The notes below the pieces were generated by a model. The model ran no database searches. It was given only the letters and a program-made list of their open reading frames with translations, and had not been told where the DNA came from. The position numbers were made by a program, and so were the translations under genes. Shown in pieces: positions 2,716-64,000 of a stretch of DNA of 64,000 nt. The stretch comes from Phoronis australis (Eukaryota; Animalia; Phoronida), in assembly GCA_002633005.1 (NCBI GenBank), contig NMRA01000512.1, positions 66,540 to 130,539 on the forward strand. The letters are read 5' to 3'. Positions within the stretch are counted from its first letter, which is position 1, and each line of letters starts with the position of its first letter.

Positions 2716-5700
2716 ATGTCTGGGTTCCAAACGTGCGGTCCTAACGAGGCCTTAGTGGTGTCAGGTACTTCTTATTTAGATTTAGCAATACATATCCTGT
2801 GACCGAATGTCAGTAAATTCATCGCACGGCCTGATGGTTACCTGTTTTGACCAAAAACATTTGTAGCCCTGGCAAATTTCGGTCCCCGTGAATTCAGAGT
2901 CAGACTAACATTGATCATTGATGCCCTAAGACCTAATTAATCAGAACTCGAAATTCTTTCGATTGCTGGAGAACTGATGTGGTGTGACCATTCAATGCGT
3001 AGTTTGGGACTTCCCGAAATGATCATATAGGTGATGCAGTGCTAATTTGGCTGTGAAAGGACTTCTTGTTAAATTTGTTTCTAGGGTTAGGCGTGGGAGT
3101 GGCGTTTAGAATACTAGACACCCATTGAGTGGCATGGATGGTGAAAACTGCAGTAGGCAAATCGATTCTTTTGCCACGAAGTGACTTGATAAAGTCTTGC
3201 AATTGTTGTGAAATTCAGGTTCCAAGTTTGACGTTAAGAGCCCTTTTTAGAAATCGCTTGCCAAGTCTTGCTTGTGTCAGTTGCCTCTTGACTGAACCAC
3301 AGGCGTCCTCAGCTTTTGATCGTCCCCAATACACTATATATACCAGTGGCGGATCTAGTTTATCACAAGGGAGGGCCCAACATTTTGTCCGGCTGTAAGC
3401 ATTTGCGCAAACTGAACCATGATTGTAGATGCGCATAGGGNNNNNNNNNNNNNNNNNNNNNNNNNNNNNNNNNNNNNNNNNNNNNNNNNNNNNNNNNNNN
3501 NNNNNNNNNNNNNNNNNNNNNNNNNNNNNNNNNNNNNNNNNNNNNNNNNNNNNNNNNNNNNNNNNNNNNNNNNNNNNNNNNNNNNNNNNNNNNNNNNNNN
3601 NNNNNNNNNNNNNNNNNNNNNNNNNNNNNNNNNNNNNNNNNNNNNNNNNNNNNNNNNNNNNNNNNNNNNNNNNNNNNNNNNNNNNNNNNNNNNNNNNNNN
3701 NNNNNNNNNNNNNNNNNNNNNNNNNNNNNNNNNNNNNNNNNNNNNNNNNNNNNNNNNNNNNNNNNNNNNNNNNNNNNNNNNNNNNNNNNNNNNNNNNNNN
3801 NNNNNNNNNNNNNNNNNNNNNNNNNNNNNNNNNNNNNNNNNNNNNNNNNNNNNNNNNNNNNNNNNNNNNNNNNNNNNNNNNNNNNNNNNNNNNNNNNNNN
3901 NNNNNNNNNNNNNNNNNNNNNNNNNNNNNNNNNNNNNNNNNNNNNNNNNNNNNNNNNNNNNNNNNNNNNNNNNNNNNNNNNNNNNNNNNNNNNNNNNNNN
4001 NNNNNNNNNNNNNNNNNNNNNNNNNNNNNNNNNNNNNNNNNNNNNNNNNNNNNNNNNNNNNNNNNNNNNNNNNNNNNNNNNNNNNNNNNNNNNNNNNNNN
4101 NNNNNNNNNNNNNNNNNNNNNNNNNNNNNNNNNNNNNNNNNNNNNNNNNNNNNNNNNNNNNNNNNNNNNNNNNNNNNNNNNNNNNNNNNNNNNNNNNNNN
4201 NNNNNNNNNNNNNNNNNNNNNNNNNNNNNNGCGGGGCGGGCCCCCTGGCCTCCCCCCCTAAATCCGCCTATATATACTACAAGGTATGACACTCCGGACT
4301 AGAAATTCCACGGGTGCTTCACTTCAGCCGTCCATAGCAAACATAAGTTTACACAAAACAGAGGCTCAACAAACCATGAAGAATTGTTCTTTCTCCCAAT
4401 ACCATTTACGGTCTCCTGCTCCCCCGAATTCGCAAAAATTCGCGGTCAAAGCACAGAAATCTTCCCAAAAAGCTTGTCCAGAGCAACTCCTTGGTCCCAT
4501 GTGTAGGGCACAGTATTATCAGATGAGTTACGAATGTACGGCATTTGCCGATTAATCACGGAAAGTCACGGCATCGATAACTGTAGTGTATATAGTGTAT
4601 TGACTATTGGGGACGATCAGAAACTGAGGACGCCTGTGGACCGAACAGTTTCGTTTGGCTCTTAACTCTCACGCCGACAGCCTGTATTCAATACCTGTCA
4701 AAGACGTGTGGAGTTTTCCACACAATTAATGTTACAGTATTAAGATGAATGTACAGAGAGCAGCTCAGATTTGAAGGGAAGAATTCTCATGTTTTTCATA
4801 GGGGCATAAGAGAAAAGTGACTTAATGGTTTTGCTGTAGAAAAACCATTCTGAATTTTTATAGTCCTGGTCAGCTTTAAGTTGATGCTGCCTTAGTTAAG
4901 TTTTTTAAGACAACAGCAAAGTGAAAATCCTTGCAATTGGAAGTTTGGACATTTTGGATTTGCTCTTACTTAACATTTTCAGGTTTAGTACTTTTGTTTG
5001 TAATTGTCAGCCGCCAGATGTCACCATAACATGGATCATTTTAGAAAAAAACATAGCTCTGGGCTCATTGACTGGCCACAAGGCCTCAAATATATAGGTG
5101 AATTTGGAGGACCTATGGTTCATGTGTTTTCTTTCCTTTTTCAATTCATTTGGGGAGCCATTGAGATGTATGTGACATCATCAGCAATTCGTGATTGATC
5201 TACCTGGCAAACTGCATTTCAAATAACCAAACAGATCAGCTCAGTTGAGCAATAGAAAATTAGGAGTGTGATCAACTGATATCTCTCACAGGCTCACCTA
5301 AGGGAAAATGTGTAGATGATTGGCACAAGTTTTCTGTACATGACTCCATAATGGGCCCTCCTGAATTTTGCCAAATGAATCTTACTTCCATCTGAAACTG
5401 TAGTATTAGAAGTGCGTGCTCAGATTTCTGCATGCCTTCTTTGTGGCAGCCTGGATATTTTTACTAGTTCTGTAAACAAAATCTGACCTTTAATTAGCAA
5501 CTTGCGGGTTGTTCCCCCAAATCGAGTGTTGTGTCTACTTGATTTATGTTGACAAGAGACTTTCCTTATATCTATTTGTCAATGGTTTAGATTTAACGAA
5601 TAAATGACCTGTGACTAAATTGTCAAACTTACTGTGATGACATTGTTTTAAAATCTCTAGAGTGTCTTTGAAAACATTTCTCACTCTTGTGAATATTTCT

Positions 5701-8700
5701 GCAGGCTGTTGCTACTCCCAGCCCCACCTGGTGGCAGGGGGCCGAGTATTTGTCTGGCCATGCCTTCAGAGGCTTGATCGTATTTCGCTGAACACCATGA
5801 CTCTAATCGTAGAGAGTCCCAACGTCTACACTCAACTAGGCGTGGCTATCTCTGTGACTGGAATTGCACAGGTGAGCATTGTTAAACATGGCCACTGGAG
5901 TCAAGTTCCCGTTTCTCGTCTGTAAACCTAACTGCAAGACTCCACTCGAAAATTGTCCAGCGGCAGTTATGTGTGCGTGTTGTTTGACAGAAATGTAACT
6001 CGTAATATGTCACATAGTCAAACAGCTTCGAGTTAAAGGCAGTCTTCAGTTTTCACATTATTAAATTGGTTAGACTCTATTTTTTGAATTTTTTTGTTCC
6101 AATTATGGAAATTTTGTGAGATGACTTTTTTACTAAGTTGTATCAATTCCGCGGAAAATCTGTGTTAGCCGTTTTCAGCCCTATTGATTTTCAACCTTTG
6201 AGTAGTTTTGAACACAATTTCTCTCTAGTGCATGGGTTGATTCATACTAAATTTTGCACCGCACAATTATGGCATATTACCAACTAATAGGGAACTGTGT
6301 CTCAGATTTCTTTATTACTCTTCAAAAAGGGTGTCTTGTCTGTAAAGAACAAATACTTGTGATGATGTTTTAAGAAGAGACCTTGATGGCTTATATCTAT
6401 TTTAATGTTAAATCAGAAATCTGAGACAGGTTTCCTTCACATTGACAATAAGAACTTACAAAGATTTTTAGAAATTCATGTTAAAAATGAGATTTTCCAA
6501 AATAGGGCTATGTGAAAATTTTTGAGGTATTCATTTTGATTTTCCTTTATATGGGATTCAGCAACAATATATTTAAGACTTGGAAATGAACAGTTTTAAA
6601 CTTATTTGCTGAAACATGAAAGGGCGTCACTCAGGTTGATATTTACCTCAAGTTTGGTATTCTTGGATCCTCGTGTCGGGAAGTTTTTAAATTGGCACTT
6701 GTCTTATTTGGACTATGGCCCTAAAACACAGGATTAAGTGGGCTCAAATAACCTGTGTAGGATAGCACTCAAACTTTGCATGATGAGATTGATTTTTGAA
6801 GTAGAAATTTGGAATATTGGTTTGCTAGGTCCCTGTAGATTTCGTAATGTGCTTTTGATTGAGGTAAAGATCATGTGCCTTGAGCATGACAGTAGGGAGT
6901 CAACTGTGTGATCTCATTAAGAACTGTTGCCAAGGCAATGTTTGCTTTTCCAGGGAAACTCTTAGTACTATTAGCATGTGTAGAGTATGGGCATGGGTTG
7001 AAGTGTCAATAGGCAACTTTTAATCATGCTAAACCATGTATGCCTCCATTGTATACAGGTGAAGATCCAAGGACAGAATGAAGAGATGCTGGCAGCAGCC
7101 TGCCAACAGTTCCTTGGCAAGGCTGACCGTGAGATCCAGCAGATCGCACTAGAGACTCTGGAGGGTCACCAGCGTGCTATCATGGGTAACATGACTGTGG
7201 AGGTGAGTGTGGGTTGTGGGAGGGACAGGTAGCGGGGTATAGGGGCACAAGAGGTAGTGTAGTGAGCGTGGCTTCCAATAGATGGCGCTAGGGAAAGTTG
7301 AGGGTAACCAATGGGTTATTGTGGGAGGGAAGAACAGTTTACTGGGAAGACAAGGTAGACGTGAGGTGGTACAGAGAGCATGGAACTCAACAGATGGCGC
7401 TAGAGATACAGGAGAGTCACCAACAGGCTATCATAGGCATCACAACTGTTCAAGTGACTGGGGGTTAGAGGTGGTAGGAAAGGTAGGGGAGGCTGGGCAG
7501 ATGTTATGACAAACATGAGGTCAAGCAGATGGTGCTACTAGAAACATTGAAGGGTCGCTTTGGGCATTATCATAGTGTAGGTGAGTGGTACATGTATGGG
7601 ATTTGGGTGTGGGAAGTGGGTCTGTAAGTCGTTCACCACCAGGTATCATAATGATCCTTGCAAGTTCTCAGATGTGCCATCGTGGAAAGCATGGCTGTGG
7701 AGGCATGACAGACCAGAAGGGACAATTGTGTGGCAAGGGGCAGACAGCGAAGGGATGATTGTGTGGCAAGGGGCAGACAGGGAAGGGATGATTGTGTGGC
7801 AAGGGGCAGACGGGAGGGAGATGGAGTGTAGGAGCATGAAAAACTTTCTCTTTATTGATGTTGAGTTATGTGAGAAATTTGAATTTCGGCCCCAGTGACT
7901 CACTAACTGAGCACTGAGTGAAGACGTGGGTCCAAGTTTTTTTCAAAGGTTCTGAAAATCGGCAAGTTGTGATCTTGAGAGGAAAATGAGTCCTGTTTGC
8001 CTGCCCCACCAGTACAGTACTGTTAAGAACGACTTAGAGACTTGACTACCTCGTAAGTTGTGTATGTCAATTTCTAATCGCAGGAAATCTACAAGGATCG
8101 CAAGAAGTTCTCCAAGGCCGTGTTTGAAGTGGCCTCGTCTGATTTGGTCAACATGGGCATTAGCGTGGTCAGTTATACCCTGAAGGACATTCGTGATGAA
8201 GAGGTAGGCCACTACTAAGACTATATCTGTGTTGTATGGGAATGTGTGTAAGGGGATTCAGTGTTCTTGTGCATTGTTGACGATACATGCCAAAAGTAAT
8301 GGGACACAAGGACCCTCAGTTTCCCATTGTGGCAGCTAAGCGCAAGTAGAACTCTGTCATGACGGCTGAGCGCATGTGAGTGTCTGGTGGCACGTGTAAT
8401 TCGCTTCAGTGACATCATGGCGGGTATTTTGTCTGTTTACTTATGGCATGTACTGTAGATCCATGGCATGTACTGTAGATCCATGGCATGTACTGTAGAT
8501 CCATGGCATGTACTGTAGGTCCATGGCATGTACTGTAGATCCAGCACCAATTACTGATCCACTTGACACCCATTTTTCAAGCCAGTGATGAAAACCTCGG
8601 TATCACGAAATTGATGCTCTCCCCTGAAAGAATGGTTTGTGTTATTGACCTACTTTACAACATGTTGGGTAGACATGGAGATGAAGTGGGCATACATACT

Positions 8701-11700
8701 GGGATGCTGTTCCAGTTCGTCAGTTGCTTGGTGTCATTGCTACCAGCACTGGAATTTACATAAAACATCTCGACGCATGAATATAATGTAATGTTGAGGA
8801 ATAGTGTCTCGCATGGCAGCGTGTGTTAGATTGGGGGAAGTACAGTCGACTGTGGCACTGTGGTATTTCAAAACGAGCTCATCGTCCATGATTGTATTTA
8901 TTTGTTGATGCGATTGCTGCATTTTTTGTCCGTTTCTGGTGAATGAATTTATTGAAACAATGGGTAAATTGTGGAATTTTCCATAGCTTTTGTTTTTTCT
9001 CGTCAACTTTTCTAAAATCCTGGGAGTTTTTTTACTAGTATTTTAGTATAATAGTAAGTTAGCTACGTTAAGTGCAGTGTCATAATCGCTCTGTGTTTGT
9101 CTATGGACAGGGTTACCTGAAGTCCCTAGGTATGGCCAGAACAGCACAGGTGAAGAGAGATGCCAGGATTGGCGAGGCTGAGGCCAAGAGAGACGCAGGC
9201 ATCAAGGTAATTGTCAATGACTGAAGATTATGCACTAGTTGGGCTGATGTTAGGCTAAAAAGTGTTATCGTATTTATCTGTGATTAAACGGGGGATGGAT
9301 TCAGTGTGACGTTTATGTTCTGAATTTTGCAAAATCGTTCAACCTTATTAGAGGATGTGCACGGTCACATGTCAGTGGAAGCATCTTTGGTGTTTGTTGG
9401 GTCTTAGCAGTAGTTTACATTGAGTGATTGTTCAGTGAAACCTGCATCAACGCGGTAATAAACCCAAGTTTCCTGTCGCAAATAAATTTCGTGAATTAGT
9501 CATTTGCTCTGTGAGGATGGATTCACTCGTGAACTTTGCTTTTGACCACTAAACTTTTCGTGACACAGAAATTGTACGAACACATTACTAGACTTTTGAA
9601 AGTGTGTCTCCCGATTGGTCAACTGTCGATTTGAGTGTTGATGAACATTTGATTTTCAGTTTATTTGAAAATGTTCCATATAACAGCTACGCATTGTTAT
9701 TTTGTTTTTCCGTTCAACAGGAGGCCATAGCTGAGGAACAGAGGATGGCGGCGCGATTCATCAACGACACCGAGATAGCCAAGGCTCAGCGGGACTTTGA
9801 GTTGAAGAAAGCGGCTTACGACATGGAAGTACACACAAAGAAGGCGGAGTCAGAGCTGGCGTATGACTTGCAGGTAGGACCAAAGGAGTCAAAATTAGTG
9901 CCCCAGGGATTTCTATTTTAGTAAAATCTCACCAATTTAGGACTCAATATTTGAAATTTCATTTTACTCGTTTTTGTCGTAAAAGATACGTGGCACCATA
10001 TTAACGCTTTGTCATATGAAGTTCTATGTGGTGAATGCCACCAGACGACATTTTGAAAATTTTGGAACATTCAAAGCAATGTAAGGAGCCCTTGGAAAAG
10101 AGAAAATGTGATTTTGTCAATTTCTTTTGTCTGTGTTTGTTAAGATTTTACTGTAATGCTTTACCTAGACGTTACCATTCATCTAAATTTCTGATCGTAG
10201 ACTTGTGTATTTGTTATGTCAACGAAGGCGATTTGTTCACTTTATTAGGGGTCGAGGTACTTTCCCTGTTTTAGATATCCATGAGGAAAGCCTTCCTTGA
10301 ACAGATTTCTGTTATGGAAAATGTGTGTGTCAGCCCAGACGATTCCAGCAATACTTTATCAACATGAGAAAACACTATTTAATCATGCAAACATAGGCTA
10401 ATCAGATGATACGTGAAATAGCTTTTTTGTGGCGTACTGCATCACCATGAGATCAAAAAACTACCATGTTACAGTTAAGAATTCAACATTCGCAGCTAAA
10501 CAGTGATGAAATGTCCCTTTAAATGGTTGATGCTTGTTGGTGGTGTGCCAAGGCAAAATGCTTTTGAAAACAACCAGATCTGATCTTAACCTAGTATCAT
10601 CAGAGCTTTCCTTTCGTCTGATGACGAGCTTCCGTTTGTTGGCATGCTGCCAAGACAAAATGTTGTTGCAGAAGTGAAATTCAATCTGACCTAACACTGT
10701 ATAGTCGTACCCTTTCCTGGCCTACCTTTTCTCTTTTCTCAACTCCCCTTCCCTTGCTGATCGTCTGCTGTTTGTTGGCAGGCTGCCAAGACGAAGCAGA
10801 AGATCAAGGAGGAGCAGATGCAGATCAAGGTTGTGGAGAGGTCGCAGCAGATCCAGGTTCAAGAGCAGGAGATCATGAGGCGTGAGCGTGAACTCGACTC
10901 GACTGTTCGCAAGCCAGCGGAGGCCGAGAAGTACAAGCTGGAGAAGCTGGCTGAGGCCAACAGGTGGCGTGAATGTTGCATTTATGCTAGTACTTTGCAT
11001 TTGCCTCGCTTGTGTTTTGCAAAAGAGAAGACGTCTTGCATGTTTATGTTTGAGATCTTTTGGGTTTTGAAAACGTCAATGACCAAGTGTCTTGTATTTA
11101 AATCATGAATATTCATGATCTCTTAGTTTAAATTGCCCTTGTTAATCAAGTATTTGTTTCTGTTTAATATAGTTATTCATGTCTTCATATCTTGTATATA
11201 AGTGTTTGCATATTCTTGCATATGTCTGTTATGACTACGAAATTGATGTCAGGAATAAGGAGTTGTGTACTATTTGGCTATTCATTAAGTGTTTGACTGC
11301 TTCTGCCGATTGTTTTAGCAGTGGGTTTCTTTGTACCTGTATTTATAACACAGGTGATGTTCATTTCACAGGAACCGTGTTATTCTGGAGGCAGAAGCCA
11401 GTGCCGAGTCTGTGCAGGTGAGTAAAGAGTGATGAATATTGAGTTGCTTGACTCTCAGTTATCAACGTGGGCTTCGCTTTGTTCAGCTTAATGATGATAG
11501 TGTGCTTCTGTGTGTTTATCTCATTCGATGGTCAATTTTGAGATTGCTTGAAAATGGCTATATTATTACATAGTAACATGGAGTCACGACTTTACTTAAA
11601 TAACTGTATATACAAACAGCATATTCATGAATATCCCCAGCAACATGGGCTTATTCTCACTTTTTCAAAAATTGCTACGAGGCAGCCAATTCCTTTTATT

Positions 11701-13388
11701 AAATAATACTTGTTTCCTGACTTCTATAGGTAGTGTTACAAAATTTCCTAATATTTTTAAATGATAATTAATCATATCTGTTATGGCTTGGTAACTCTTA
11801 AATGTTTCTATTTGCCACGTACAAAAGCAAAATGATTTTCATCTTCGACATAGCTATCATTACAAACTTTGTAGCAATGAACAGTGTTAGATGCAAGATG
11901 ACTAGTAATGGCATCTGTGGGTGTCGAGCTGTTTGACTTCGTTAAGGTTTGATGTGAGCTTCAGTTTGTCAACAACTTTTTGCAAAGATCAGTTTTGCAA
12001 GTCTCCAATCCCCACTGCCTAATCTACTCACAATAGCCGGAGATGACGTCCGAAAACGTTAACAAATAGTCTCGCTTCATAAGGCTTACTGGGATTGGTT
12101 GAATCGAGATGCGATGAGATGTTCAATCCTATTCTTCTCTTTTGCTGTAAAGGTCAAAGGTGAAGCCGAAGCCTTCGCCATTGAGGCTAAGGCCAAGGCC
12201 GAGGCAGAACAGATGGCAAAGAAGGCCAATGCATGGAAAGACTACCAGGATGCTGCTATGATTGACATGGTGTTGGAAACCCTGCCCAAGGTAGGTGTGA
12301 CTTAGCTGTGCAGACAGTTGTGATTGGCTTCAGGCAAAGTAGGCGTGTCCTTGTCATGGAGACGGTCGGGATTGCCATGGTAATGAAGATCATTCTCAAA
12401 GTCAATGTTGGATGTTGCCAGTTGGTGGACAATTTATTCTTGACTTAACATAACACGAAGAAAAATGTGGAGAATATTGTTTATGAGTTTTTCAGTCAAT
12501 GAGCTAAAGCTCTTTGTTCGTGTATTGGTGGGTGCCAACCAGTCACAGTAGCGAACTTTGAGATTTTGTAGTCCATACTTAGTGCACTGTGTGTCTTTGT
12601 GAATACATGGATTTTAAATCATCACAGGCTTTCGTTTTCCTAAATGATTTTCAAAGGCAATAAAAATCTTACATTGTAAAGCGGGTGCTGTAAAGAAAAA
12701 ATATGTTATTTAAGATTGGCATTACTGTTAAGAAACCAATGTTGAGTCTGTTTTTGCCACCAGGTTGCAGCTGAAGTTGCGGCGCCATTGTCACAGTGTA
12801 AGAAAGTCACCATGGTTGCCAGCGGTAACAGCGAAGTGGGCGCGGCCAGACTGACAGGAGAGGTACTGGACATCATGGAGAAACTGCCAAAGATGGTGGA
12901 AGGCATGACTGGGGTCAATATTGGCAAGGTGAGAGTGTGGTCGGTGTCTCTTGAGTGAGGGGGGGGGGCGTTAAATGTGTGCAACCCGCCAGTTGTTGAA
13001 TGACATAATACTTCATGGATGATCACTCTGTAAATACCACGAGGTTCATGTTGAACGTGGTAGCTCTTTTTTTAAAAATGTTTAGAACACAAACTTACTC
13101 CTATGTTTTACACGAAAGCATTACATTTGTCACAAATAACGACTTTGTATTTAATTCATGGATTATGCTTCACTTTAGACAAAAGTAAAAAATTTAGCTT
13201 CCGTTCTCTGCATCTGAGAACATTGTGTGAAATGCCTTCCTATCGTGATTCGTCATGAACTTCTGAGCTCTTGTACACGCCCGCAGCCGACGTGTTAGTG
13301 CAGCAAAATCATTGCATGTCGTTTCTTTTATGTAAATGTGACAGTTTACCTTTTGTTACAGGCAATGCAAGGTGCCACAAGACACTAA
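2716..13388 (+). CDS. FLOT1: Flotillin-1 (reggie-2), 11 coding exons
   Basis: GT-AG exons with consistent phase: 2716-2764, 5705-5871, 7059-7202, 8084-8203, 9111-9206, 9721-9873, 10782-10963, 11372-11417, 12153-12290, 12764-12928, 13362-13388. Protein [17 protein letters not shown]...[12 protein letters not shown]...[13 protein letters not shown]...AMQGATRH*; SPFH plus flotillin coiled coil with FLOT1-type motifs. Confidence 0.95.
3298..4638. mobile_element. Non-autonomous TIR DNA transposon (hAT/P-like) in FLOT1 intron 1
   Basis: ~34-bp TIR CACAGGCGTCCTCAGYTTYTGATCGTCCCCAATA at both ends; 8-bp TSD gactgaac (3290-3297) / gaccgaac (4639-4646). Confidence 0.8.
3344..4269. mobile_element. Nested hAT-like element spanning the assembly gap
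   Basis: Ends CAGTGGCGGAT... and ...ATCCGCCT, flanked by atatatac on both sides; interior is mostly N (3441-4230). Confidence 0.5.
7725..7812. repeat. 33-bp tandem repeat, ~3 copies
   Basis: Unit attgtgtggcaaggggcagacagsgaagggatg. Confidence 0.9.
8443..8542. repeat. 20-bp minisatellite, 5 copies
   Basis: Unit atggcatgtactgtagatcc. Confidence 0.95.
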
Positions 13389-26244: not shown

Positions 26245-45509
<19,265 letters not shown>

Positions 45510-48390: not shown

Positions 48391-52795
<4,405 letters not shown>

Positions 52796-53396: not shown

Positions 53397-53525
53397 CGTG
53401 TCGATTTTTCATTGGCTACTATGTTCCTTGTTGTCCTAAAGTGATTGGATACGTTCAATCACGTGCAAGCGTGTTTCTCTTTTATTGGTGGGTGTCAAAT
53501 TTGACCTTCTGAAAAGGACACGTCA
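53397..53525 (-). promoter_or_regulatory. HSPA5 ER-stress promoter: two ERSE-like elements and a UPRE-like site
   Basis: Minus strand CCAAT-N9-ACACG at 53415-53397 and 53488-53470; third CCAAT at ~53444-53448; TGACGTGT at 53525-53518. Confidence 0.75.
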
Positions 53526-54059
53526 GTATACGTCATCTCCGGACATGCGCATCGTAAAATACTTGAACGCACATGGTCTTTTGCGCCAAGATTTCGTAGG
53601 AGTAGGACGTGGTTTCAGTCTTAGATGAACCTGAAAAAAATTGGGGTTAGTTAGGTTCTAGTACATATCTGTTTTTCGTTTATTCAATTTATGAGTCAAA
53701 ATTTCACACTGCTAATGGGCAATTGACGTACTTTTAAGAAACATCAAAAATCTTTCTCGTGTGTTGGACTTTCCAAACTGAAGCACAAAATTCGCTTAAA
53801 ATTCGCTCAGGCCTACGGAACCAGAACACCAACCATAAGACGCTCTTAAATCGTGCAATAGTGGTATTAACTATTTGGGCACTGGTTGCGTGTATCGATC
53901 TTTGATTTTGAGAACCAGACAATCTGCAATCACTGAATAACTGGTCCGTTATTGGCGTTATTCATTGGATGAAACTGGTTCTCAAAATCCGTGAATTACT
54001 GACTAGCTTGTGTGCGCACCCAGGGGCAAGGTTTGGAATTTTCTGCGGAAACGCGGATT

Positions 54060-54440
54060 TCCGCGTTTTTCTTTTATTCTCTCCGCATCATATGTACGTT
54101 ATATTTCCGCGGAAAAAAATCTGATTTGCCATGAAATTATCGCGGCAAATTGGTTTCTCACCGCAGCATTGCTAACGACTCGAAAAGCGGAAATCTTAAT
54201 GTTTCGGAGGAACGAAAACTGTACTTGCAGATCACAGGCGCTCGAATTTCCGAATGACTTGTAAACCACATATAACAAGGCTTTGAATTGTCCGCGTATT
54301 TTATTTTATTTCCGCGTAAAAAAAATCTGATTTGATATAAAAAAATTTCCTGCAAATTACTTTCTTACCGCGGCGTTGCCGACTACTTTCACCTCAAAAG
54401 CGGAAGTTGCTCTTTATGTTTTGGAGGAACGTAAATTGTC
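54060..54440. repeat. ~230-bp degenerate direct duplication in the HSPA5-divergent promoter region
   Basis: tttccgcg.aaaaaaatctgatttg...aaaagcggaa...ggaggaacg.aaa.tgt occurs at ~54100-54222 and ~54308-54440. Confidence 0.75.
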
Positions 54441-55675
54441 AACATTGCCGGGGCATCTGGGATAGCATGGTGGATTTTTAAATGGCGTCCCGTGTGATTG
54501 TAAACCGCGGTGACAAATACTACGACTCTGCAGCCGAAAATGTGTGGGGGTGGGAGTGGACGCCCCTGCTAAAAAGACGCTGACATACGCTTCTGGAAGT
54601 GGCAGTTTTTTTAGTCCTCTCGGTTTTTGTCGGCAAAAGGCCCATATCGACTATTTCAAGGCTGCGAAGCACGCGTTTTGGGCCGTAAAAATTTCCGCTT
54701 TTTTGTCATTGGCCATTGCAAGCCCTGATACTAGAAACATGTTTTCTTAGTAGTGAGTGACGTCAGCGGCAATCGGGGAACAAATAAATTCAAGCGCCTG
54801 TGCCTGGGATAGGGTGGTTCATCAATGGCGTCTGTGGTCAAAAATGCATGGAGCGTGGAGTAGACAGAATATTTCGTGGGAAAAGCAGATAAAAGAAATG
54901 GTCAATGTCTTCACAAACAACATAAGTCAAGGTTTTTGCTCTGTAAACTTTGAGAGAGGAACAATTACGGAGTGCTTGGCCGAGTCGCCTTGGACGAAGT
55001 TGGAATCTGAGGACCAACTGAAAATGATGACACGCTAGAAATAACGCTTCCTGAAAGAAATTTAACCGTAACCGGTTATTTGTTGGGATTGAAATCGTAG
55101 CATGTGAGTGATGTATGGAATTCTTTTGTTTGATCCCACATGCACGGCCATTGCCGTTGGCTGCTAGTGCTAAGCCTGACCGTCTGAGTGCGATTTTCTA
55201 CGTGTCACCGAAACGGGATACAAAGTGCTATTTTAGTTATTGCATGTGTGTTTTAAATTGCCGTTTATGTATTTCAATTTATTTTGACATTTTTCGTGAC
55301 AAGAGTTTTGCACTTCGGGAGAAATGATCACGTGACAGATTCTGAATGATCTGATTGGTCTAAGCCATTGTTTACAAATTCCGCCAGCTATGAAACTACT
55401 TGCTTCTCATAGTTACACAAGGACTGGTCTTATGATCCACACAACTATTTCATTTGAACAACAGTGAAAAGTCTGAGAATGTATGCAAAAGTGCTTGTTA
55501 ATAATTTCTTTGAATTATTCTTATACAGTGATATGCTCATAATTACTAGGGTGAAGCTTTATTGAGCATTTGTGAAGTGGAATGGTGAAACCAAATTGTC
55601 TTAAACCATTTTCATGAAACGGCGCCTGGCAAGGTTTTTAGTCGCCTGGTTCTACTGTATTGTGTAAATGAAACA

Positions 55676-55743
55676 AACCTGTGATGAACCATACTTGTCG
55701 TAACATGATCATGAATGTAGACAGAGCTAGGTCACTGAGGTGT
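55676..55743 (+). ncRNA. Box C/D snoRNA candidate, target not identified
   Basis: C box GTGATGA 55681-55687, D' ATGA, C'-like ATGTAGA, D CTGA 55735-55738, terminal stem acct/aggt, ~70 nt upstream of acceptor 55811. Confidence 0.6.
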
Positions 55744-56181
55744 TGAAAATGGTCTTCGTTATTAACAACTAACAGTGTAGCATGTTACTCAACTAACTTG
55801 CGTCATTTCAGATTGTGCTGACGATTCAAGGATGACCAGGAAACACTTCCACAGAGCAGGTCTGTTTGAGTTGAGATTCTCATCCTCACAGTTTCAGTAA
55901 TTCTCATGATTATTTCGCCGCCAAAACAATTTGCCAAAATTGCATTTTTGGTATTCTCAAAGGCTAATTGCCATGCTGCAAATACATGGGACTTTACCAA
56001 ATGGTATTTTAAGGCATCCAAGCTAATATTAAATAACTATTTTTAATTTGTGCTTTTGTCAAGGAATTTGAAAACAGAAAAGTATCGCATGTGCGCCGTA
56101 TTGTGTGCAAAATGTGTGGAAACTTGTCATTCTGGTTTATTTTTTGTTACTTTTAACTTCGTGTGGTACTAAAAAACAATG

Positions 56182-56252
56182 CACTTGCCAGTGAGGACAT
56201 TATCTAGGCTGAAGTAAATGTCGACATTAGATTGAGGTCTCTGAGGCATGTG
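56182..56252 (+). ncRNA. Box C/D snoRNA candidate, target not identified
   Basis: C-like GTGAGGA, D' CTGA, C'-like ATGTCGA, D CTGA, stem cacttgcc/ggcatgtg, ~66 nt upstream of acceptor 56318. Confidence 0.55.
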
Positions 56253-57743
56253 AGTTATGGTGTTGTTTCTCGTGACATGAGAGATTGCTTTTTCTGAACC
56301 CTTTGATGTTAATTTCAGATGTGCTGGCGTAGTAGCGTGTGGATTTGTTGAGATTTCTAAAACCATGTGCAAATACCCGGTTACATGGAGCTGCATCTCA
56401 GCTCATTGGTCTACATTCGGTGTCTTGATAGCACAGGTAGGCCACCTTTGTTCTCAAGTCTATACAAAAGTGTGAACTTGCTGGCTAATTCCTTATCTCT
56501 CTGATTGCTTGATCAAATTAGAAACCCAACATTTAGCCACAGTGTGAATTGTGAATATGGAGTTTGTTGAAAACTGTCAGATGTTTTCAAGAACGTGTTT
56601 AGTGTCGAAAATAGTATCCTGTAAATCACTGAACCGTGTTCAGTAAGTATTGTGACGTGTTGGAAAATAATACTGCATGATGCGGGTTATGTGAGCTCCC
56701 AAGGTACGTGGTTAGCGTAAAAGTCACCTATTTGCAGAATGCTTTTGTTTTCATCTTTACAAGTTGTAAATGTATACAACTGCACTTTGTTTAGTGTAGA
56801 TGATGTTCAAATAGCGTTGTCGTCTACTTACTGCTATGCAGTAGTGTTGTTAAGAGCATGTTTATAGAGAAATGAATGTTTTTTAATGGTTGTCAGTGTT
56901 CTCCACAACAAAAATTCCAAACTCTACCCAAATATTTTTGTTAGTAGTAATCACTGTTCATACCCTAGCAACATGGTGTGTATTAATATACGTTTTAAAA
57001 GTGTACACTGAACTGGTATGACCTACTTTTTGACTTTCCTACCAATTTTTCACCATAAAATCCAACTAAAGGTTACAAGTTCCTTTAATAATAAAAATGT
57101 CAATTCTAGTATCAATTCTACTTATCAAATATTACTAACGATGTGACCTAGTAATTAGGGACACCTGTTGTTCAGTTGAATAAGTTCTAATTCGCCACCA
57201 GATGTCAGTCAAAATCAAAATCCTTTAAATTAAGCATATCAAGTTGTTAATTTACGGGTTTAAGTGCAAAATTTTAAAGTTAAAATAATATTGCTGGCTA
57301 GTCAATTATTAAAATAAGGTAGCTGACACCATAAAATTATGTTAAAAATAGAATTTCTTCAGATGTTTTTAGCAATAATTTACACTCAATTATTACAAAA
57401 ATTAGGTCATATATGTAATAGGAACTATGTCTGATGTTGGCTAATTCACCCTCTTTTTGATTCTGAGGTCAAAAGTGCCAAGCCAGCCAAAGTTTTAACT
57501 TGTCGCGGCACTTTTCAAACTCAACGCGCATTCTCCAAACTCAATGTGTCAAAATTTAAACTCGTTGCCGCGTCGAGTCAAAACCGGTCGTGGAGAACAC
57601 TGGTTGTGACGTATATGTGAACATACCTTTGGTAGAAGTAGTTGTATTTGGGGGCAGAAAAAATGCTAGATCATTTTTGTGCTGTAGAAAAATTTATTGT
57701 CGGAACTTAAAAATCTTTTGAGTATATTTCTGTTGAGGCCTTC

Positions 57744-57825
57744 GAACCCTGTCTATGATGCTCTTGTATATTTGCTACTCTTGACTGTCTGGTATGACGA
57801 ATCGACAATTCTGAGGCAAGGGTTC
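57744..57825 (+). ncRNA. SNORD76: Box C/D snoRNA, SNORD76-like (28S Am, yeast Am1449-equivalent)
   Basis: C ATGATGC; guide ATATTTGCTACT antisense to 28S AGUAGCAAAUAU, followed by C-TTGA (D') as in vertebrate U76; C' ATGACGA; D CTGA; stem gaaccct/agggttc. Confidence 0.8.
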
Positions 57826-58767
57826 TGGTACTAAACTTCAAATACGTACCTCTTGATATGTTAACAGTTGATATTCTTCAACTGTCTTTGAATTTTCTGC
57901 TCAAACTTTGTTTTTCAGCTGTCAGCTGTGTAACCACAGAAAGTACGGCTCATTACTTTTGAGGTATGTTTTTAGTGGGCAGTTTGATCTAATCTTGGTA
58001 CCAGTATATGCAGGGCTTGGCACTTCGCATGATGTTGATTTGTCAAATCTGATCTGACAAAATTCCCAAGGAAATGAGGTCGCTAAAACAAAGACACCCT
58101 GTGTGAGGAAGTCCTGGCCACCACAAACGACATTTGGTTGGCGATATCTGAAAAACACAAAGTGGGACATCTGAATGTTGAAAGCTTCGGGCAACTGTGC
58201 AAGTACTCTTAAACACCCAAGTGCTGTTATTTTTGGTTGAACAGTAAATTGGGCATATATTGCCTGATGAGTGAGTTTTCATTGCGTGAGTTTTCATTGC
58301 GTGAGTTTTCATTGCGGATCAATATCCCACCCGAAATAAGCTCCTACCTCAGGGAAAACAAATGACCACTAGGACATTCGTGCATATGTCTTGTGACGGG
58401 ACGTTCGTAACTTTACGCTTATTCTTATTGAGTTGCAAATGTTCACTTATTCTTATGCTAATGTCTTTGTTGCGTCTCAGTGCGCCTTTGTTACGTGGGC
58501 ATGTGGGCGCGACTGTATGTGTCGGGCACTTCGCTAGCGACAGGCTTAGGAGAAGGGTGTTTCCTTCTTTTGCTTTCACGGAAAGTTGATCGTTATCATG
58601 TGCAAATTGAACTGAAACGAATGCCTGATGAGAGAAAATACATATTTTGAGGTTCAGTGGAGACTTGCTCTGTTACAGTCTGAAATGCTGTCATTGTCAT
58701 TTCAACTAAGTGAGGTGACAATTTTTCCTGACCAGTTCCTTAGTTGTCACATTTTTATTGCCTATGT

Positions 58768-58843
58768 GCAGTCCTGCGTGATGATTGCATTAGTAATGGA
58801 AATCTCTCAGAACAAGGGCTGTTGAGGTACGTAATCTGACTGT
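58768..58843 (+). ncRNA. SNORD79: Box C/D snoRNA, SNORD79-like (copy A, one guide mismatch)
   Basis: C GTGATGA 58778; guide ATGGAAATCTCT + D' CAGA (target 28S GAGAUUCCCA); D CTGA 58836; stem cagtc/gactg. Confidence 0.7.
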
Positions 58844-60395
58844 TTGCATAAAGGCGGGTCACCTATAGTCTAGACGCATTTCCTGAAAAGAGCCCTGTAT
58901 AAGGTTCTAGAAGCATTTTTTAGTAAAAGTTGGGAACAAGACTTTTTCACACAATCAAGGCATGGCGAATTCAACTAACCCTGTTCCCAAGCCGAATTTT
59001 GCATTTTTGACCATCTAATTAGCATAAACAAAATGGCGGCCAAATTGTCAAGTTAAGATGTATTTTTGTAATAGAAATCATAATATACCATTTAAAATGG
59101 TGAAAAGTCTCACCTGTACACTTCTTGTAAATACTTCTTGAGCAATAGATCACTTATGAAAACTAAAAAATGCATTTCTAAAAACTAATTATGCAAATTA
59201 GGTGCCGCCATTACCATACAATGTAATTTGAGTCTTAAGTTTGTGCTCCTGCAGGCTAACTTGAAAAATGAGGTGTTAATACTTATATTTTCATGGTCAA
59301 CAAACATGCTANNNNNNNNNNNNNNNNNNNNNNNNNNNNNNNNNNNNNNNNNNNNNNNNNNNNNNNNNNNNNNNNNNNNNNNNNNNNNNNNNNNNNNNNN
59401 NNNNNNNNNNNNNNNNNNNNNNNNNNNNNNNNNNNNNNNNNNNNNNNNNNNNNNNNNNNNNNNNNNNNNNNNNNNNNNNNNNNNNNNNNNNNNNNNNNNN
59501 NNNNNNNNNNNNNNNNNNNNNNNNNNNNNNNNNNNNNNNNNNNNNNNNNNNNNNNNNNNNNNNNNNNNNNNNNNNNNNNNNNNNNNNNNNNNNNNNNNNN
59601 NNNNNNNNNNNNNNNNNNNNNNNNNNNNNNNNNNNNNNNNNNNNNNNNNNNNNNNNNNNNNNNNNNNNNNNNNNNNNNNNNNNNNNNNNNNNNNNNNNNN
59701 NNNNNNNNNNNNNNNNNNNNNNNNNNNNNNNNNNNNNNNNNNNNNNNNNNNNNNNNNNNNNNNNNNNNNNNNNNNNNNNNNNNNNNNNNNNNNNNNNNNN
59801 NNNNNNNNNNNNNNNNNNNNNNNNNNNNNNNNNNNNNNNNNNNNNNNNNNNNNNNNNNNNNNNNNNNNNNNNNNNNNNNNNNNNNNNNNNNNNNNNNNNN
59901 NNNNNNNNNNNNNNNNNNNNNNNNNNNNNNNNNNNNNNNNNNNNNNNNNNNNNNNNNNNNNNNNNNNNNNNNNNNNNNNNNNNNNNNNNNNNNNNNNNNN
60001 NNNNNNNNNNNNNNNNNTTTTTAGCAATAATTTACACTCAATTATTACAAAAGTTAGGTCATATATGTAATAGGAACTATGTCTGATGTTGGCTAATTCA
60101 CCATCTTTTTGATTCTGAGGTCAAAAGTGCCAAGCCAGCCAAAGTTTTAACTTGTCGCGGCACTTTTCAAACTCAACGCGCATTCTCCAAACTCGACGCG
60201 TCAAAATTTAAACTCGTTGCCGCATCGAGTCAAAACCGGTCGTGGAGAACACTGGTTGTGACGTATATGTGAACATACCTTTGGTAGAAATAGTTGTATT
60301 TGGGGCAGAAAAAATGCTAGATCATTTTTGTGCTGTAGAAAAATTCATTGTCGGAACTTAAAAAATCTTTTGGGTATATTTCTGTTGAGGCCTTC

Positions 60396-60477
60396 GAACC
60401 CTGTCTATGATGCTCTTGTATATTTGCTACTCTTGACTGTCTGGTATGATGAATCGAAAATTCTGAGGCAAGGGTTC
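60396..60477 (+). ncRNA. SNORD76: SNORD76-like snoRNA, second copy/allele
   Basis: Same boxes and guide as 57744-57825; C' is canonical ATGATGA. Confidence 0.75.
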
Positions 60478-61091
60478 TGGTACTAAACTTCAAATACGTA
60501 ACTCTTGATATGTTAACAGCTGATATTCTTCAACTGTCTTTCATTTTTCTGCTCAAACTTTGTTTTTCAGCTGTCAGCTGTGTAACCACAGAAAGTACGG
60601 CTCATTGCTTTTGAGGTATGTTTTTAGTTGGCAGTTTGATCTAATCTTGGTACCAGTATATGCAGGGCTTGGCACTTCGCATGATGTTGATTTGTCAAAT
60701 CTGATCGGGCAAAATTCCGGAGGTCGCTAAAACAAAGACACCCTGTGTGAGGGAGTCCTGGCCACCACAAACGGCATTCGGTTGGCGACATCTGAAAAAC
60801 AAGAAGTGGGACATCTGAATGTTGAAAGCTTCGGGCAACTGTGCAAGTACTCTTAAACACCCAAGTGGTGTTATTTTTGGTTGAACAGTAAATTGGGCAT
60901 ATATTGCCTGATGAGTGAGTTTTCATTGCGGATCAATATCCCACCCGAAATAAGCTCCTACCTCAGGGAAAACAAACGACCACTAGGACATTCGTGCATA
61001 TGTCTGAAATGCTGTCATTGTCATTTCAACTAAGTGAGGTGACAATTTTTCCTGACCAGTTCCTTAGTTGTCACATTTTTATTGCCTATGT

Positions 61092-61164
61092 GCTGTCATG
61101 CATGATTGCGTTAGTAATGGGAATCTCTCAGAACAAGGGCTGTTGAGGTACGTAATCTGACTGT
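61092..61164 (+). ncRNA. SNORD79: SNORD79-like snoRNA, copy B (perfect guide, altered C box)
   Basis: Guide ATGGGAATCTCT-CAGA; C box lacks 3 nt (gcatgattg); D CTGA 61157-61160. Confidence 0.65.
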
Positions 61165-61367
61165 TTGCATAAAGGCGGGTCACCTATAGGTGTTAGTGAT
61201 ATTGGAATTGGGAATTCTGGGTAACAATAATTTATCATTTTTCAGAATGGTCTGCAGCCAAACGAAGATCTGGATACTGTTGGATTGAACTTGACGGTTG
61301 AAGCAGGTGATTATCTTTCTAAGAAAAAGTTGGACGAGCAAGAAAAAAAAATAAGTACATTGGAAGT

Positions 61368-61470
61368 GTTAGCTATGATGAAATTCTTGCCATAACTCAT
61401 TCGCAGTTTCCAACTCGAGAGGTCCCTGCCTTGATGAGGGCATAATCCTTCCTTGGATGTCTGAGCTAAC
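61368..61470 (+). ncRNA. SNORD14: U14 snoRNA (SNORD14)
   Basis: C ATGATGA; domain A CATTCGCAGTTTC (anti-18S GAAACUGCGAAUG); domain B CCTTCCTTGGATGT + D CTGA (18S Cm414 yeast/Cm462 human); stem gttagct/agctaac. Confidence 0.93.
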
Positions 61471-62003
61471 TTATATTTTTATGCGCCCACATATTTATAT
61501 GTGGACGCATTATAAAATTTTGAAGTCTCCTCTGAATACATTTTACAGCTTTTAATGCCCTGGGCACAATTAGGTAACTGGAAAATTGTGGTGAGGGGTA
61601 ATCCTNATATTGTACTCCTGGTCCCACGAATGTCTCTGATCTTGTTGATTTGGCGGCCATTTTGTTTATGCAAATTAAATGGTCAAAAACTCGAAATCCA
61701 GCTTGGGAACAGGCATAATCGAAATCAGCACACCATAATTATGCTAAAAAGTTAGGTTCTCCACTTTTACTAAAAAATGCCTCTAACATGCACATTTTTC
61801 AGAAATGCGTCTAGACTACTATAGGTGTGAGTGATATTGGAATTGGGAATTCTGAGTAACAATAATTTATCATTTTTCAGAATGGTCTGCAGCCAAACGA
61901 AGATCTGGATACTGTTGGATTGAACTTGACGGTTGAAGCAGGTGATTATCTTTCTAAGAAAAAGTTGGACGAGCAAGAAAAAAAAAATAAGTACATTGGA
62001 AGT

Positions 62004-62106
62004 GTTAGCTATGATGAAATTCTTGCCATAACTCATTCGCAGTTTCCAACTCGAGAGGTCCCTGCCTTGATGAGGGCATAATCCTTCCTTGGATGTCTGA
62101 GCTAAC
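62004..62106 (+). ncRNA. SNORD14: U14 snoRNA (SNORD14), identical second copy/allele
   Basis: Identical to 61368-61470. Confidence 0.93.
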
Positions 62107-62900
62107 TTATATTTTTATGCGCCCACATATTTATATGTGGACGCGTTATAAAATTTTGAAGTCTCCTCTGAATACATTTTACAGCTTTTAATGCCCTGGG
62201 CACAATTAGGTAACTGGAAAATTGTGGTGAGGGGTAATCCTGAACAAGCAATTCAGCCTAGCGTGTCGGGATTAACATCCAATAAAATGGGACAGTGCAG
62301 TTATTTTCCCCACCTGAATAAGCCAAAGTGGTCTTGAAAGTGGTTGCTCTTTATTCACAAAGGGAAGGGAACACCTGTGATGCGAGTGCTTCATGTCGTA
62401 CGAGACTGGCATTCCCCCGCTAAGACATAAGCACTCTCTTGAAAGTGTTTCGTGTCGATATGGGATTGGGTGTGGGTGTTAAGGGGCTCGCAGGTGGACA
62501 TGGGCATTAACCTGGACCGATGTAGTACCTGTGCCAGTAACGATTGCATTTTATTTGTTCAATTTTAATTATATCTGACTGCAGCACTTTGACAAACTAA
62601 CATGTCAGGAACTCCTTCATATATCTACATCGTCCATGTTAACACTGGAATGTACATTCTTTCTTTTTTAGTCTTGTATCAGAATTTGGTGTTAATACTG
62701 GAGATGAAGACGCAAAAGGTATGATTGTGAGCTCGCATAGGCGAGTAACAATGTCTTACTGATTTATATTGAAGTGAGTAATTTAAGTAGTTAAGTGTTG
62801 GAGAATTGTGTGTTGGTATAAGGTTCTTGTATGGGTTGCTTAATCATCGCTGATGTTAGCTCAAAATGAGGCTGCGTACCCTAAGTAGGTCCAACCACTT

Positions 62901-62972
62901 AGCCAATGATGAACGTTATCCCTGTCTGACGATATATTCTGGAGTCAAAGTGAATTCCTCGTTTCTGAGGTT
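62901..62972 (+). ncRNA. SNORD1: Dual-guide box C/D snoRNA, snR38/SNORD1-like plus an 18S guide
   Basis: C ATGATGA 62906; D' guide GTTATCCCTGT-CTGA (28S ACAGGGAUAAC); D guide GAATTCCTCGTT-T-CTGA (18S AACGAGGAAUUC); stem agcc/ggtt. Confidence 0.88.
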
Positions 62973-63820
62973 TGTGGTGGATGCAGGTGGGCGACGGGTT
63001 TCGCTTTGCTAAGTAATGAAAGCTCTGACGGAACCCAAGATTGTGTCGATTGACATTTAGCGTTGTGGAATGTGTTTACACTCGAGTGTCCTTGAGTATT
63101 ACAGAGGTATACAGCTATGACTTAGTTTTACTTTCCTTTTCTTTTAGACTCTGCTTGTGCAAATCATGCCAGCGATCTGCAGACTGAATTGGTATGTATT
63201 GTGTTGTTGGTGCATGCATTTTTGTTCTTCATCTTAAGAGCAACTTACAAACGAGAGGTTCTTGCATAATTTGGATCCAACTGAATGGATAAATTTTATC
63301 CTAGTGCAAGTCTGATCTGAAGGGTCAGCTTCTGGAGTTGAAATAGGTTCTGCGGAAGTTGTAAAGAAATAAGAGTGGTGTTATGCAAGTTTTAGTCTAG
63401 TCTTATTTCCTTACGGCCAACAGGGTAGTTTTTAGAGGTACTTTTAGTCATTAATGTTAGTGGTTTGCTTTCTTAGTTCATAATATCTGAACAATGTGGC
63501 TTTTGCACTTACGGTCTCTGTACTCGGTGCATTTTGAGTTAGAGAATATCGCCCAATCTGGTAATCACAGCCACATGGTTTAAATCAGACAAATGTAGCG
63601 GAAACTGTGAACTATGGAATGCACTTGCTCACATATCTAAACAACAATCCAGGGCTCTTACAATTTCTGAATGAAAATCACAAGTGTCCTGGTGTGAGTG
63701 CAGTCTCATAGTTGCAGCTTATCATAGTCAAATGAGTACGCATTATAATAGGATAATTGGCATGTCAGCTGACCTCGCCTAGTGCAGGACAAGGGTTAAG
63801 TAGCCTGTGTTTGTCCTTGG

Positions 63821-63907
63821 ATGCTTGTTATGATGATATTTTCCCCAACTGATCGATATATGCAGATCTTGTGCTATTACCAAGCCAGAACAAATCTGAA
63901 CAAGCAT
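63821..63907 (+). ncRNA. SNORD12: Box C/D snoRNA, SNORD12-like
   Basis: C ATGATGA; TTTTCCCC.. + D' CTGATCGA (28S GGGGAAAG); AAGCCAG near D CTGA as in vertebrate SNORD12; 9-bp stem atgcttgtt/aacaagcat; 77 nt upstream of acceptor 63984. Confidence 0.75.
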
Positions 63908-64000
63908 ATCATTTCCATATGAACCATGGTATGTTTCATAGGGCCTCTATTGTCTCTCTGACTTAACAAACTCTTGTGTTACAGGTCTTGTGATCTGCTG

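What the first reader, a model, noticed from the sequence alone, without database searches (positions are those of the whole stretch)
2716..64000. Compact proto-MHC synteny block
Known human positions: FLOT1 and SKIV2L at 6p21.3 (MHC), GTF3C5 and HSPA5 at 9q33-34, GAS5 (U76/U79 host) at 1q25. All three are MHC-paralogon regions. Finding these five loci consecutively in 64 kb of an invertebrate-type genome suggests a retained piece of the pre-duplication linkage group. It also adds positional support for the snoRNA host being GAS5-related.
Basis: partly seen in the sequence, partly recalled or inferred. Interest (0 to 1): 0.7.

Follow-up and report, generated by a model that had tools for sequence, protein, structure and literature searches.

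The report
Shuffled piece of proto-MHC chromosome
Four housekeeping genes whose human counterparts lie in MHC-related regions sit side by side here; three of them also share one chromosome, far apart, in other invertebrates, so this is most likely the known ancient chromosome-wide linkage and not a preserved block, with a snoRNA host gene at the end that may be related to GAS5.

Summary
The genes are real: FLOT1 (+), GTF3C5 (-), SKIV2L (+) and HSPA5/BiP (-) follow one another, then a spliced non-coding host of box C/D snoRNAs that starts about 220 bases from the BiP start. Orthology holds (Pfam, PDB best hits, tblastn). Chromosome linkage holds too: FLOT1 and BiP share a record in 5 of 8 other invertebrates with both genes, GTF3C5 and BiP in 3 of 5; the misses include fragmented assemblies. 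Gene order does not hold: in a limpet the three genes are loci 46, 726 and 915 of one record. Published work shows the proto-MHC is a whole scrambled chromosome, and amphioxus blocks on it mix such orthologues routinely. So the run far exceeds chance for an unlinked genome but is expected on this chromosome. The fifth locus is only partly GAS5-like: U76-type and U79-like snoRNAs come in GAS5 order, but with U14, snR38-like and SNORD12-like guides that vertebrates keep elsewhere. Known linkage, new instance; the one open lead is a possible invertebrate GAS5 orthologue.

The parts
624..908 (-).
   Evidence: Pfam THAP E=2.6e-7 on 765-908; stop read from the frames
2716..13388 (+). FLOT1 (flotillin-1), 10 exons by homology plus a short last exon read from the sequence
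   Evidence: PDB bits FLOT1 vs FLOT2: 65.7/31.5, 67.6/44.2, 63.6/43.1; tblastn covers 417 of 426 aa of a brachiopod flotillin-1
15099..26047 (-). GTF3C5 (TFIIIC tau95 subunit); ends approximate, acidic last exon inferred
   Evidence: Pfam Tau95 E=2.1e-23 and Tau95_N; best PDB hit human GTF3C5; six colinear tblastn segments 26020-17054
27750..45509 (+). SKIV2L/SKIC2 RNA helicase; first coding exon not resolved; head-to-head with GTF3C5
   Evidence: Ski2_N, DEAD, Helicase_C, arch, DSHCT; 141.8 bits to human SKIC2 vs 77 to MTR4; tblastn covers 999 of 1249 aa
48391..53358 (-). HSPA5/BiP with N-terminal hydrophobic leader and C-terminal KDEL; non-coding first exon ~53230-53358
   Evidence: 424 bits to BiP vs 335 or less to other HSP70s; tblastn 646 of 669 aa; 48 of 215 molecules end at 53358 in run X5 and loose ends splice to the first coding exon
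53359..53577 (.). About 220-base divergent promoter between BiP and the snoRNA host, with two ERSE-like elements (53397-53415, 53470-53488), each one letter off the consensus
   Evidence: 2 of the 3 matches in the whole window lie here; consensus from PMC8301375; function not tested
53578..64000 (+). Spliced non-coding multi-snoRNA host gene, runs off the window; pyrimidine-rich start inferred at ~53578
   Evidence: GT-AG joints 55859/56319 (36, 26, 35 reads) and 56436/57919 (29, 27, 19 reads) in three RNA runs, none in the DNA run; read ends at 53593; longest open frame in three joined exons 56 codons. The link from the 5' end to these exons and everything beyond 59300 is inferred
55681..55738 (+). 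Unassigned C/D-like element, 73 bases before an acceptor
   Evidence: boxes; no family or target
56191..56244 (+). Unassigned C/D-like element, 75 bases before the RNA-supported acceptor 56319
57755..57814 (+). U76-type snoRNA (second copy 60407-60466)
   Evidence: Rfam SNORD24 family 28.3 bits, gathering 41; 12-bp perfect duplex with large-subunit rRNA, 4 and 2 of 60 shuffles reach it; fifth base from the D' box pairs with the A, the U76 and not the U24 site
58103..58174 (+). Unassigned C/D-like element before a possible 26-base exon (58245-58270); copy at ~60747-60818
   Evidence: read from the sequence; no Rfam hit
61101..61160 (+). U79-like snoRNA (copy 58780-58838 has one guide change)
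   Evidence: Rfam SNORD79 26.6 bits, E=0.06, gathering 47; only 8 bp to the non-animal rRNA at hand
61375..61464 (+). U14 (SNORD14); identical second copy 62011-62100
   Evidence: 63.9 bits, gathering 64, E=4e-12; 14-bp duplex with small-subunit rRNA, 0 of 60 shuffles
62906..62968 (+). snR38-like snoRNA with a second guide to small-subunit rRNA
   Evidence: Rfam snoR38 29.4 bits; 11-bp LSU and 12-bp SSU duplexes next to the boxes
63830..63899 (+). SNORD12/Z103-like snoRNA
   Evidence: 39.5 and 35 bits, gathering 44 and 43; target not found in the rRNA at hand

Best explanation
This is a gene-dense stretch of the old animal chromosome that later gave the four human MHC-paralogon regions, and its gene order is most likely a local product of shuffling, not an inherited block. 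Shown: four orthologues lie in a row, three of them share a chromosome-scale record in other invertebrates, and they are not neighbours there. From the literature: genes leave their ancestral chromosome at under 1% of families per 100 million years while inversions scramble their order. Inferred: after the vertebrate genome doublings each single-copy gene survived on one of the four copies, so any few neighbours on the invertebrate chromosome read as a mixture of human 6p21, 9q33-34 and 1q25 genes. The fifth locus is a non-coding host whose introns likely release rRNA methylation guides, likely driven from a promoter shared with BiP.
For: Same record (judged by identical record length) for FLOT1 and BiP in Solemya, Haliotis asinina, Owenia, Patella caerulea, Ostrea edulis; for GTF3C5 and BiP in Gigantopelta, P. 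caerulea and an amphioxus hybrid assembly; for GTF3C5 and FLOT1 in two Patella species. Order lost: P. caerulea loci 46, 726, 915; accessions 876 apart in Owenia and about 740 in Haliotis. PMC13012124: 432 genes of one amphioxus chromosome map to human 1, 6, 9, 19 and 55 MHC-related genes are scattered along it. Its Dataset S2 has no row for GTF3C5 or SKIC2, while blocks 25 and 29 hold runs such as MED22-RPL7A-SURF1-TMEM183A-PFDN6 and PLPP7-SCAI-HSD17B8-GAPVD1-SMG7 (their human positions recalled). Translocation rates: PMC13689697. Linkage kept, order scrambled, also in scallop: PMC7269912.
Against: Different records for FLOT1 and BiP in 3 of 8 species (Saccostrea echinata 36.2 vs 22.6 Mb, S. 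cucullata, Lingula) and for GTF3C5 and BiP in 2 of 5 taxa (B. belcheri in two assemblies, Lingula); I take these as fragmented assemblies but did not show it. In Solemya FLOT1 and BiP are only 19 loci apart (4-14% by chance in one of four species), which could be a remnant of closer linkage. SKIV2L was not placed in any other invertebrate by my calls. Record length is a proxy for record identity, and accession distance for gene distance. The window's own chromosome was not available, nor any close relative.
Confidence: 0.85

Rival explanations
1. The block is an inherited microsyntenic remnant of a compact proto-MHC, kept together by selection.
For: Four of four recognisable genes are MHC-paralogon orthologues, tightly packed, with two divergent pairs; FLOT1 and BiP 19 loci apart in Solemya.
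Against: Hundreds of loci apart in Patella; three separate scaffolds in Lingula; not in pan-amphioxus blocks; PMC13012124 argues against an en-bloc proto-MHC; none of the four is an immune receptor or antigen-processing gene.
Confidence: 0.06
2. The order is inherited only within the window's own narrower clade (shared with close relatives, lost elsewhere), held by shared divergent promoters.
For: GTF3C5/SKIV2L and HSPA5/host are head-to-head with short spacers; amphioxus shows that order can persist within a subphylum.
Against: The closest sequence by identity (a brachiopod, 88%) has FLOT1, GTF3C5 and BiP on three scaffolds of 888, 308 and 165 kb. No true close relative was available.
Confidence: 0.09
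3. Separate question, the host gene: it is the invertebrate orthologue of vertebrate GAS5, descended from one ancestral multi-snoRNA host on this chromosome.
For: U76-type then U79-like, the GAS5 order in chicken (introns 3 and 9); non-coding, short exons, pyrimidine-rich start; two of five families from a ten-snoRNA host by chance 6-13%, and the host lies on the chromosome that gave human 1q25 (GAS5 position recalled).
Against: Only 2 of about 10 GAS5 families found; Rfam scans of the unassigned elements gave none of U74, U75, U44, U47, U77/80, U78, U81; three cargo families sit in other hosts in chicken (HSPA8 and two unnamed hosts); U79 call is below gathering; snoRNA location drifts and host homology was judged virtually impossible to determine in PMC2655684.
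Confidence: 0.35
4. Separate question, the host gene: it was assembled in this lineage by snoRNA movement into a broadly expressed divergent transcript of the BiP promoter, and resembles GAS5 by convergence.
For: Mixed cargo from four vertebrate hosts; constrained-drift model; repeats and duplicated segments inside the host.
Against: Needs the U76-U79 pair and the matching chromosome to be coincidence.
Confidence: 0.55

Closest known systems
Amphioxus proto-MHC chromosome (Asymmetron lucayanum chromosome 7 and Branchiostoma counterparts; PMC13012124)
   Same: Orthologues of human 6p21, 9q33-34 and 1q genes mixed on one invertebrate chromosome; SKIC2-like genes named there; GTF3C5 and BiP share a record in an amphioxus assembly.
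   Different: Different gene order; GTF3C5 and SKIC2 are absent from its conserved blocks, and the only flotillin row lies among MED13 and PIPOX in another gene-number range, probably FLOT2.
Bilaterian ancestral linkage groups (PMC7269912, PMC13689697); the MHC group is called M by recall, no call confirms the letter
   Same: Linkage kept, order scrambled, also in lophotrochozoans, as found here for three genes.
   Different: Nothing in kind; this window is one more sample.
Vertebrate GAS5 (chicken gas5-like host; PMC2653536)
   Same: Non-coding multi-intron host of C/D snoRNAs with short exons; U76 before U79.
   Different: Eight other GAS5 families not found; carries U14, snR38-like and SNORD12-like guides; head-to-head with BiP.
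Non-coding snoRNA host genes in general (UHG/SNHG class, also reported in fruit flies)
   Same: One guide per intron near the 3' splice site, no long reading frame.
   Different: This cargo set and the BiP-shared promoter were not found in my searches.

Membership tests
Proto-MHC ancestral linkage group | Genes are orthologues of human MHC-paralogon genes | tested here: met
   human MHC location of FLOT1 and SKIV2L; GTF3C5 and HSPA5 at 9q recalled; best-hit and domain tests, no gene tree with paralogues
Proto-MHC ancestral linkage group | Orthologues share one chromosome in other invertebrates | tested here: met
   FLOT1-BiP 5 of 8, GTF3C5-BiP 3 of 5, GTF3C5-FLOT1 2 of 4; SKIV2L from literature only
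Proto-MHC ancestral linkage group | Rest of this scaffold or chromosome belongs to the same group | not testable with these tools
   no genome held
Conserved microsynteny block | Same neighbours or order in distant species | tested here: not met
   P. caerulea loci 46, 726, 915; nearest case 19 loci in Solemya; absent from amphioxus blocks
Conserved microsynteny block | GTF3C5-SKIV2L head-to-head pair kept elsewhere | tested here: inconclusive
   0 of 80 metagenome SKI2 loci carry GTF3C5 or FLOT1, but the closest matches are short (1-12 kb) and the long loci are distant relatives
MHC proper | Class I/II or antigen-processing genes | tested here: not met
   none in the window
Non-coding snoRNA host gene | Spliced transcript, short exons, no long frame | tested here: met
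   shown for three exons only
Non-coding snoRNA host gene | Intronic C/D snoRNAs with rRNA guides | tested here: met
   mature snoRNAs not seen directly
Non-coding snoRNA host gene | 5' terminal oligopyrimidine start | tested here: inconclusive
   C plus T-run at 53578, reads end at 53593; no cap data
GAS5 | About ten snoRNAs (U74, U75, U76, U77/80, U44, U78, U79, U47, U81) | tested here: not met
   2 found within the window; host continues past 64000 and has a 706-base gap
GAS5 | Conserved order of shared snoRNAs | tested here: met
   U76 before U79; with two items this is a coin toss
GAS5 | Same flanking genes as vertebrate GAS5 | tested here: inconclusive
   5' neighbour is HSPA5; vertebrate neighbours differ by recall; 3' neighbour outside the window

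The most novel reading that the evidence does not exclude
The snoRNA host is a true invertebrate GAS5 orthologue: a non-coding host gene older than the protostome-deuterostome split, still on the proto-MHC chromosome, still carrying U76 and U79 in order, and here wired head-to-head to the ER-stress promoter of BiP, so that U14 and other rRNA guides would be co-regulated with the unfolded protein response.
Probability: 0.3. Interest if true: 0.55.

Novelty: new member of a known kind. Interest (0 to 1): 0.22.

Why it matters
The synteny itself adds one data point to a settled picture: the proto-MHC was a whole chromosome, and compaction of the MHC came later. It is a useful caution that short runs of MHC-paralogon genes in invertebrates are expected. 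If the host proved to be GAS5, it would be among the oldest traceable non-coding host genes and would show that chromosome position can establish orthology where exon sequence cannot; a shared promoter with BiP would link rRNA modification guides to ER stress, which is directly testable.

Tried and rejected
Rfam at gathering: 0 hits in the window; no snoRNA in 2700-53000 at E up to 1 (4 weak hits, microRNA-like or scaRNA-like on repeats). An unanchored scan for box-adjacent rRNA duplexes gave 16 sites on the host strand and 14 on the opposite strand, so it is at chance level and only box-anchored, family-supported guides were kept. NAD-GH Pfam hits on the + strand of HSPA5 rejected as the antisense shadow of HSP70. 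An ATG exon at 25591 as first coding exon of SKIV2L: its frame does not fit the next exon by my reading, left open; hand-set exon models had wrong boundaries and no exact models were finished. Tree of one BiP exon with 24 named animals did not place the organism. Metagenome SKI2 loci gave no animal neighbourhoods. Gene-to-linkage-group tables: supplement of PMC13689697 too large, no gene names found in PMC8809688 or in the five searched files of PMC8302630, one file unsearched, none readable for PMC3514665; the SI Appendix of PMC13012124 with the MHC gene maps was not readable. These could place all four genes. The placozoan proto-MHC paper and the original GAS5 paper were not held. No listed holder of the host stretch is on record as RNA; raw-read runs of the same species label were laid instead. 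Earlier scan notes by place, by GAS5 words and by sequence gave nothing relevant.
Full report
Observation. The window is animal DNA, about 40% G+C, with two N gaps; no whole genome is held. Four intron-containing genes run through it. FLOT1 (+, 2716-13388) scores far better against flotillin-1 than flotillin-2 on all three exons tested and covers 417 of 426 residues of a brachiopod flotillin-1. GTF3C5 (-, about 15099-26047) has both tau95 domains, human GTF3C5 as best solved relative and six colinear segments. SKIV2L (+, about 27750-45509) has the Ski2 N-terminal domain and scores 141.8 bits against human SKIC2 against 77 for MTR4; tblastn covers 999 of 1249 residues. HSPA5 (-, 48391-53358) ends in KDEL and prefers BiP to other HSP70s. 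These are best-hit and domain tests, not gene trees with paralogues. Of 104 other frames of 72 residues or more, 4 hit Pfam, all antisense to HSP70 exons. A THAP frame with a stop lies just upstream of FLOT1. A tree of one BiP exon left the organism unplaced among invertebrates; highest identity was 88% to a brachiopod.

The fifth locus. Rfam finds nothing at gathering level, but at relaxed level the + strand beyond 57 kb holds U14 twice (63.9 bits, gathering 64), SNORD12/Z103-like, snR38-like, SNORD24-family twice and SNORD79-like twice. Three stranded RNA runs of the same species label show BiP transcribed on the - strand from about 53358 and a + strand RNA whose reads end at 53593, with two GT-AG joints (55859/56319: 36, 26, 35 reads; 56436/57919: 29, 27, 19 reads) absent from the DNA run. 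Only 52830-59300 was laid, so the link from the 5' end to these exons and all exons beyond 59300 are inferred from splice signals. The C/D elements lie 73-105 bases before acceptors in most introns. Against eukaryotic rRNA contigs found with the U14 guides (unidentified, the complete one probably not animal) U14 pairs over 14 bases (0 of 60 shuffles), the snR38-like RNA over 11 and 12 bases, and the SNORD24-family RNA over 12 bases with the fifth base from its D' box on the adenosine, the U76 site in the chicken table. The U79-like RNA rests on Rfam alone (26.6 bits, E=0.06, gathering 47) and pairs over only 8 bases with the rRNA at hand. Three further elements have boxes and position but no family or target. 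Two of the three ERSE-like matches in the window lie in the 220 bases between the two starts (consensus from passages of PMC8301375). The second U76, U79 and U14 copies sit in segments duplicated at 96-99% beside an N gap and may be assembly artefacts.

Testing the linkage. The protein searches report the length of the record carrying each protein, which serves as a chromosome label. FLOT1 and BiP share a record in 5 of 8 species holding both: Solemya (133.5 Mb), Haliotis asinina (102.0), Owenia (40.8), Patella caerulea (47.8), Ostrea edulis (109.5); they do not in Saccostrea echinata (36.2 vs 22.6 Mb), S. cucullata and Lingula. Batillaria was dropped because its BiP has no record length. GTF3C5 and BiP share a record in 3 of 5 taxa: Gigantopelta, P. 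caerulea and an amphioxus hybrid assembly; not in B. belcheri (two assemblies) or Lingula. GTF3C5 and FLOT1 share one in 2 of 4: both Patella species; not Lingula or Ylistrum. Only 10 of the 150 listed GTF3C5 hits were looked up, and only the best 120 hits of each other search were seen. Order is not kept: P. caerulea loci 46, 726 and 915; accessions 876 apart in Owenia and about 740 in Haliotis. The nearest case, 19 loci in Solemya, has a 4-14% chance in one of four species. SKIV2L was not placed in an invertebrate by my calls.

What is known. Passages of PMC13012124 state that 432 genes of one amphioxus chromosome map to human 1, 6, 9 and 19, that 55 MHC-related genes, with SKIC2-like genes named among the reshuffled ones, are scattered along it, and that this contrasts with an en-bloc proto-MHC. 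In its Dataset S2 (searched whole; parts 6-8 of 77 read) GTF3C5 and SKIC2 have no row, the one flotillin row and two HSP70 rows lie outside the gene-number range of GAPVD1, RPL7A and NELFE, and blocks 25 and 29 show other runs of MHC-paralogon orthologues (human positions recalled). Passages of PMC7269912 describe kept linkage with scrambled order, also in scallop. The abstract and two sections of PMC13689697 give translocation below 1% of families per 100 million years, with 7.3% ancestral and 2.5% later moves in lophotrochozoans. With such retention three further genes from the same group are expected with probability 0.34-0.86 on an unfused chromosome and 0.01-0.11 on a fused and mixed one, against about 1e-4 without linkage (the denominators are my assumptions). 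Passages of PMC10751288 and PMC1309616 give the MHC background and list FLOT1 and SKIV2L as human MHC-region genes. Two earlier scan reports on other genomes reached the same reading; they are not independent support.

GAS5. Passages of PMC2653536 place U76 and U79 in introns 3 and 9 of the chicken gas5-like host, and U14, snR38 and HBII-99 (taken here, by recall, as SNORD12) in three other hosts. So the window's host mixes cargo of four vertebrate hosts. Passages of PMC3511168 and PMC2655684 argue that snoRNAs move between hosts and that host homology is hard to establish. For orthology: two of five families from one ten-snoRNA host (6-13% by chance) on the chromosome that gave human 1q25. 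I put it at about one in three. Searches for an invertebrate GAS5, for this gene set, or for a BiP-snoRNA host pair returned no listing that describes one (listings only, open-access library only).

Verdict. Real genes, real ancient linkage, no preserved block: a new instance of a known pattern, interest 0.22. The lead worth keeping is the snoRNA host.

Noticed in passing
window 624-908 (-): THAP-domain frame with a single in-frame stop at 762-764, divergent from FLOT1; pseudogene, transposon remnant or sequence error
   Followed up: partly
window 53359-53577: Two ERSE-like elements, both with the same one-letter departure from the consensus, between the BiP and snoRNA-host starts
   Followed up: partly
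window 62906-62968: One snoRNA joins an snR38-type large-subunit guide and a 12-base small-subunit guide; this pairing was not checked in other animals
   Followed up: partly
window 57366-58286 vs 60018-60930; 61184-61605 vs 61819-62241: Segments duplicated at 96% and 99% around the N gap; possibly two haplotypes or a real tandem duplication of host exons with their snoRNAs
   Followed up: partly
window 25588-25624 (+): Exon-like ATG element with a donor site inside a GTF3C5 intron; if it is a SKIV2L 5' exon the two genes overlap head-to-head
   Followed up: no
window 53910-55420, 56286-57580, 58230-58660: High-copy repeats inside the host's introns (very high summed contig depth)
   Followed up: no
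window 23853-24125 vs 24503-24779: Inverted 277-base repeat pair at 92% identity in a GTF3C5 intron, transposon-like
   Followed up: no
L089, L093, L099, L119: 4 of 80 metagenome SKI2 loci carry a distant HSP70 gene (46% to the BiP exon in two of them) 7-8 kb upstream; not BiP, organisms not identified
   Followed up: no
L001-L047: At least 47 prokaryote genome records hold contigs matching eukaryotic small-subunit rRNA motifs; 12 of 12 checked are eukaryotic rRNA, i.e. contamination, including two full rDNA repeats in L030
   Followed up: partly
P0033 and P0161 (Solemya velum): BiP and FLOT1 only 19 loci apart; worth checking whether GTF3C5 and SKIV2L lie nearby
   Followed up: no
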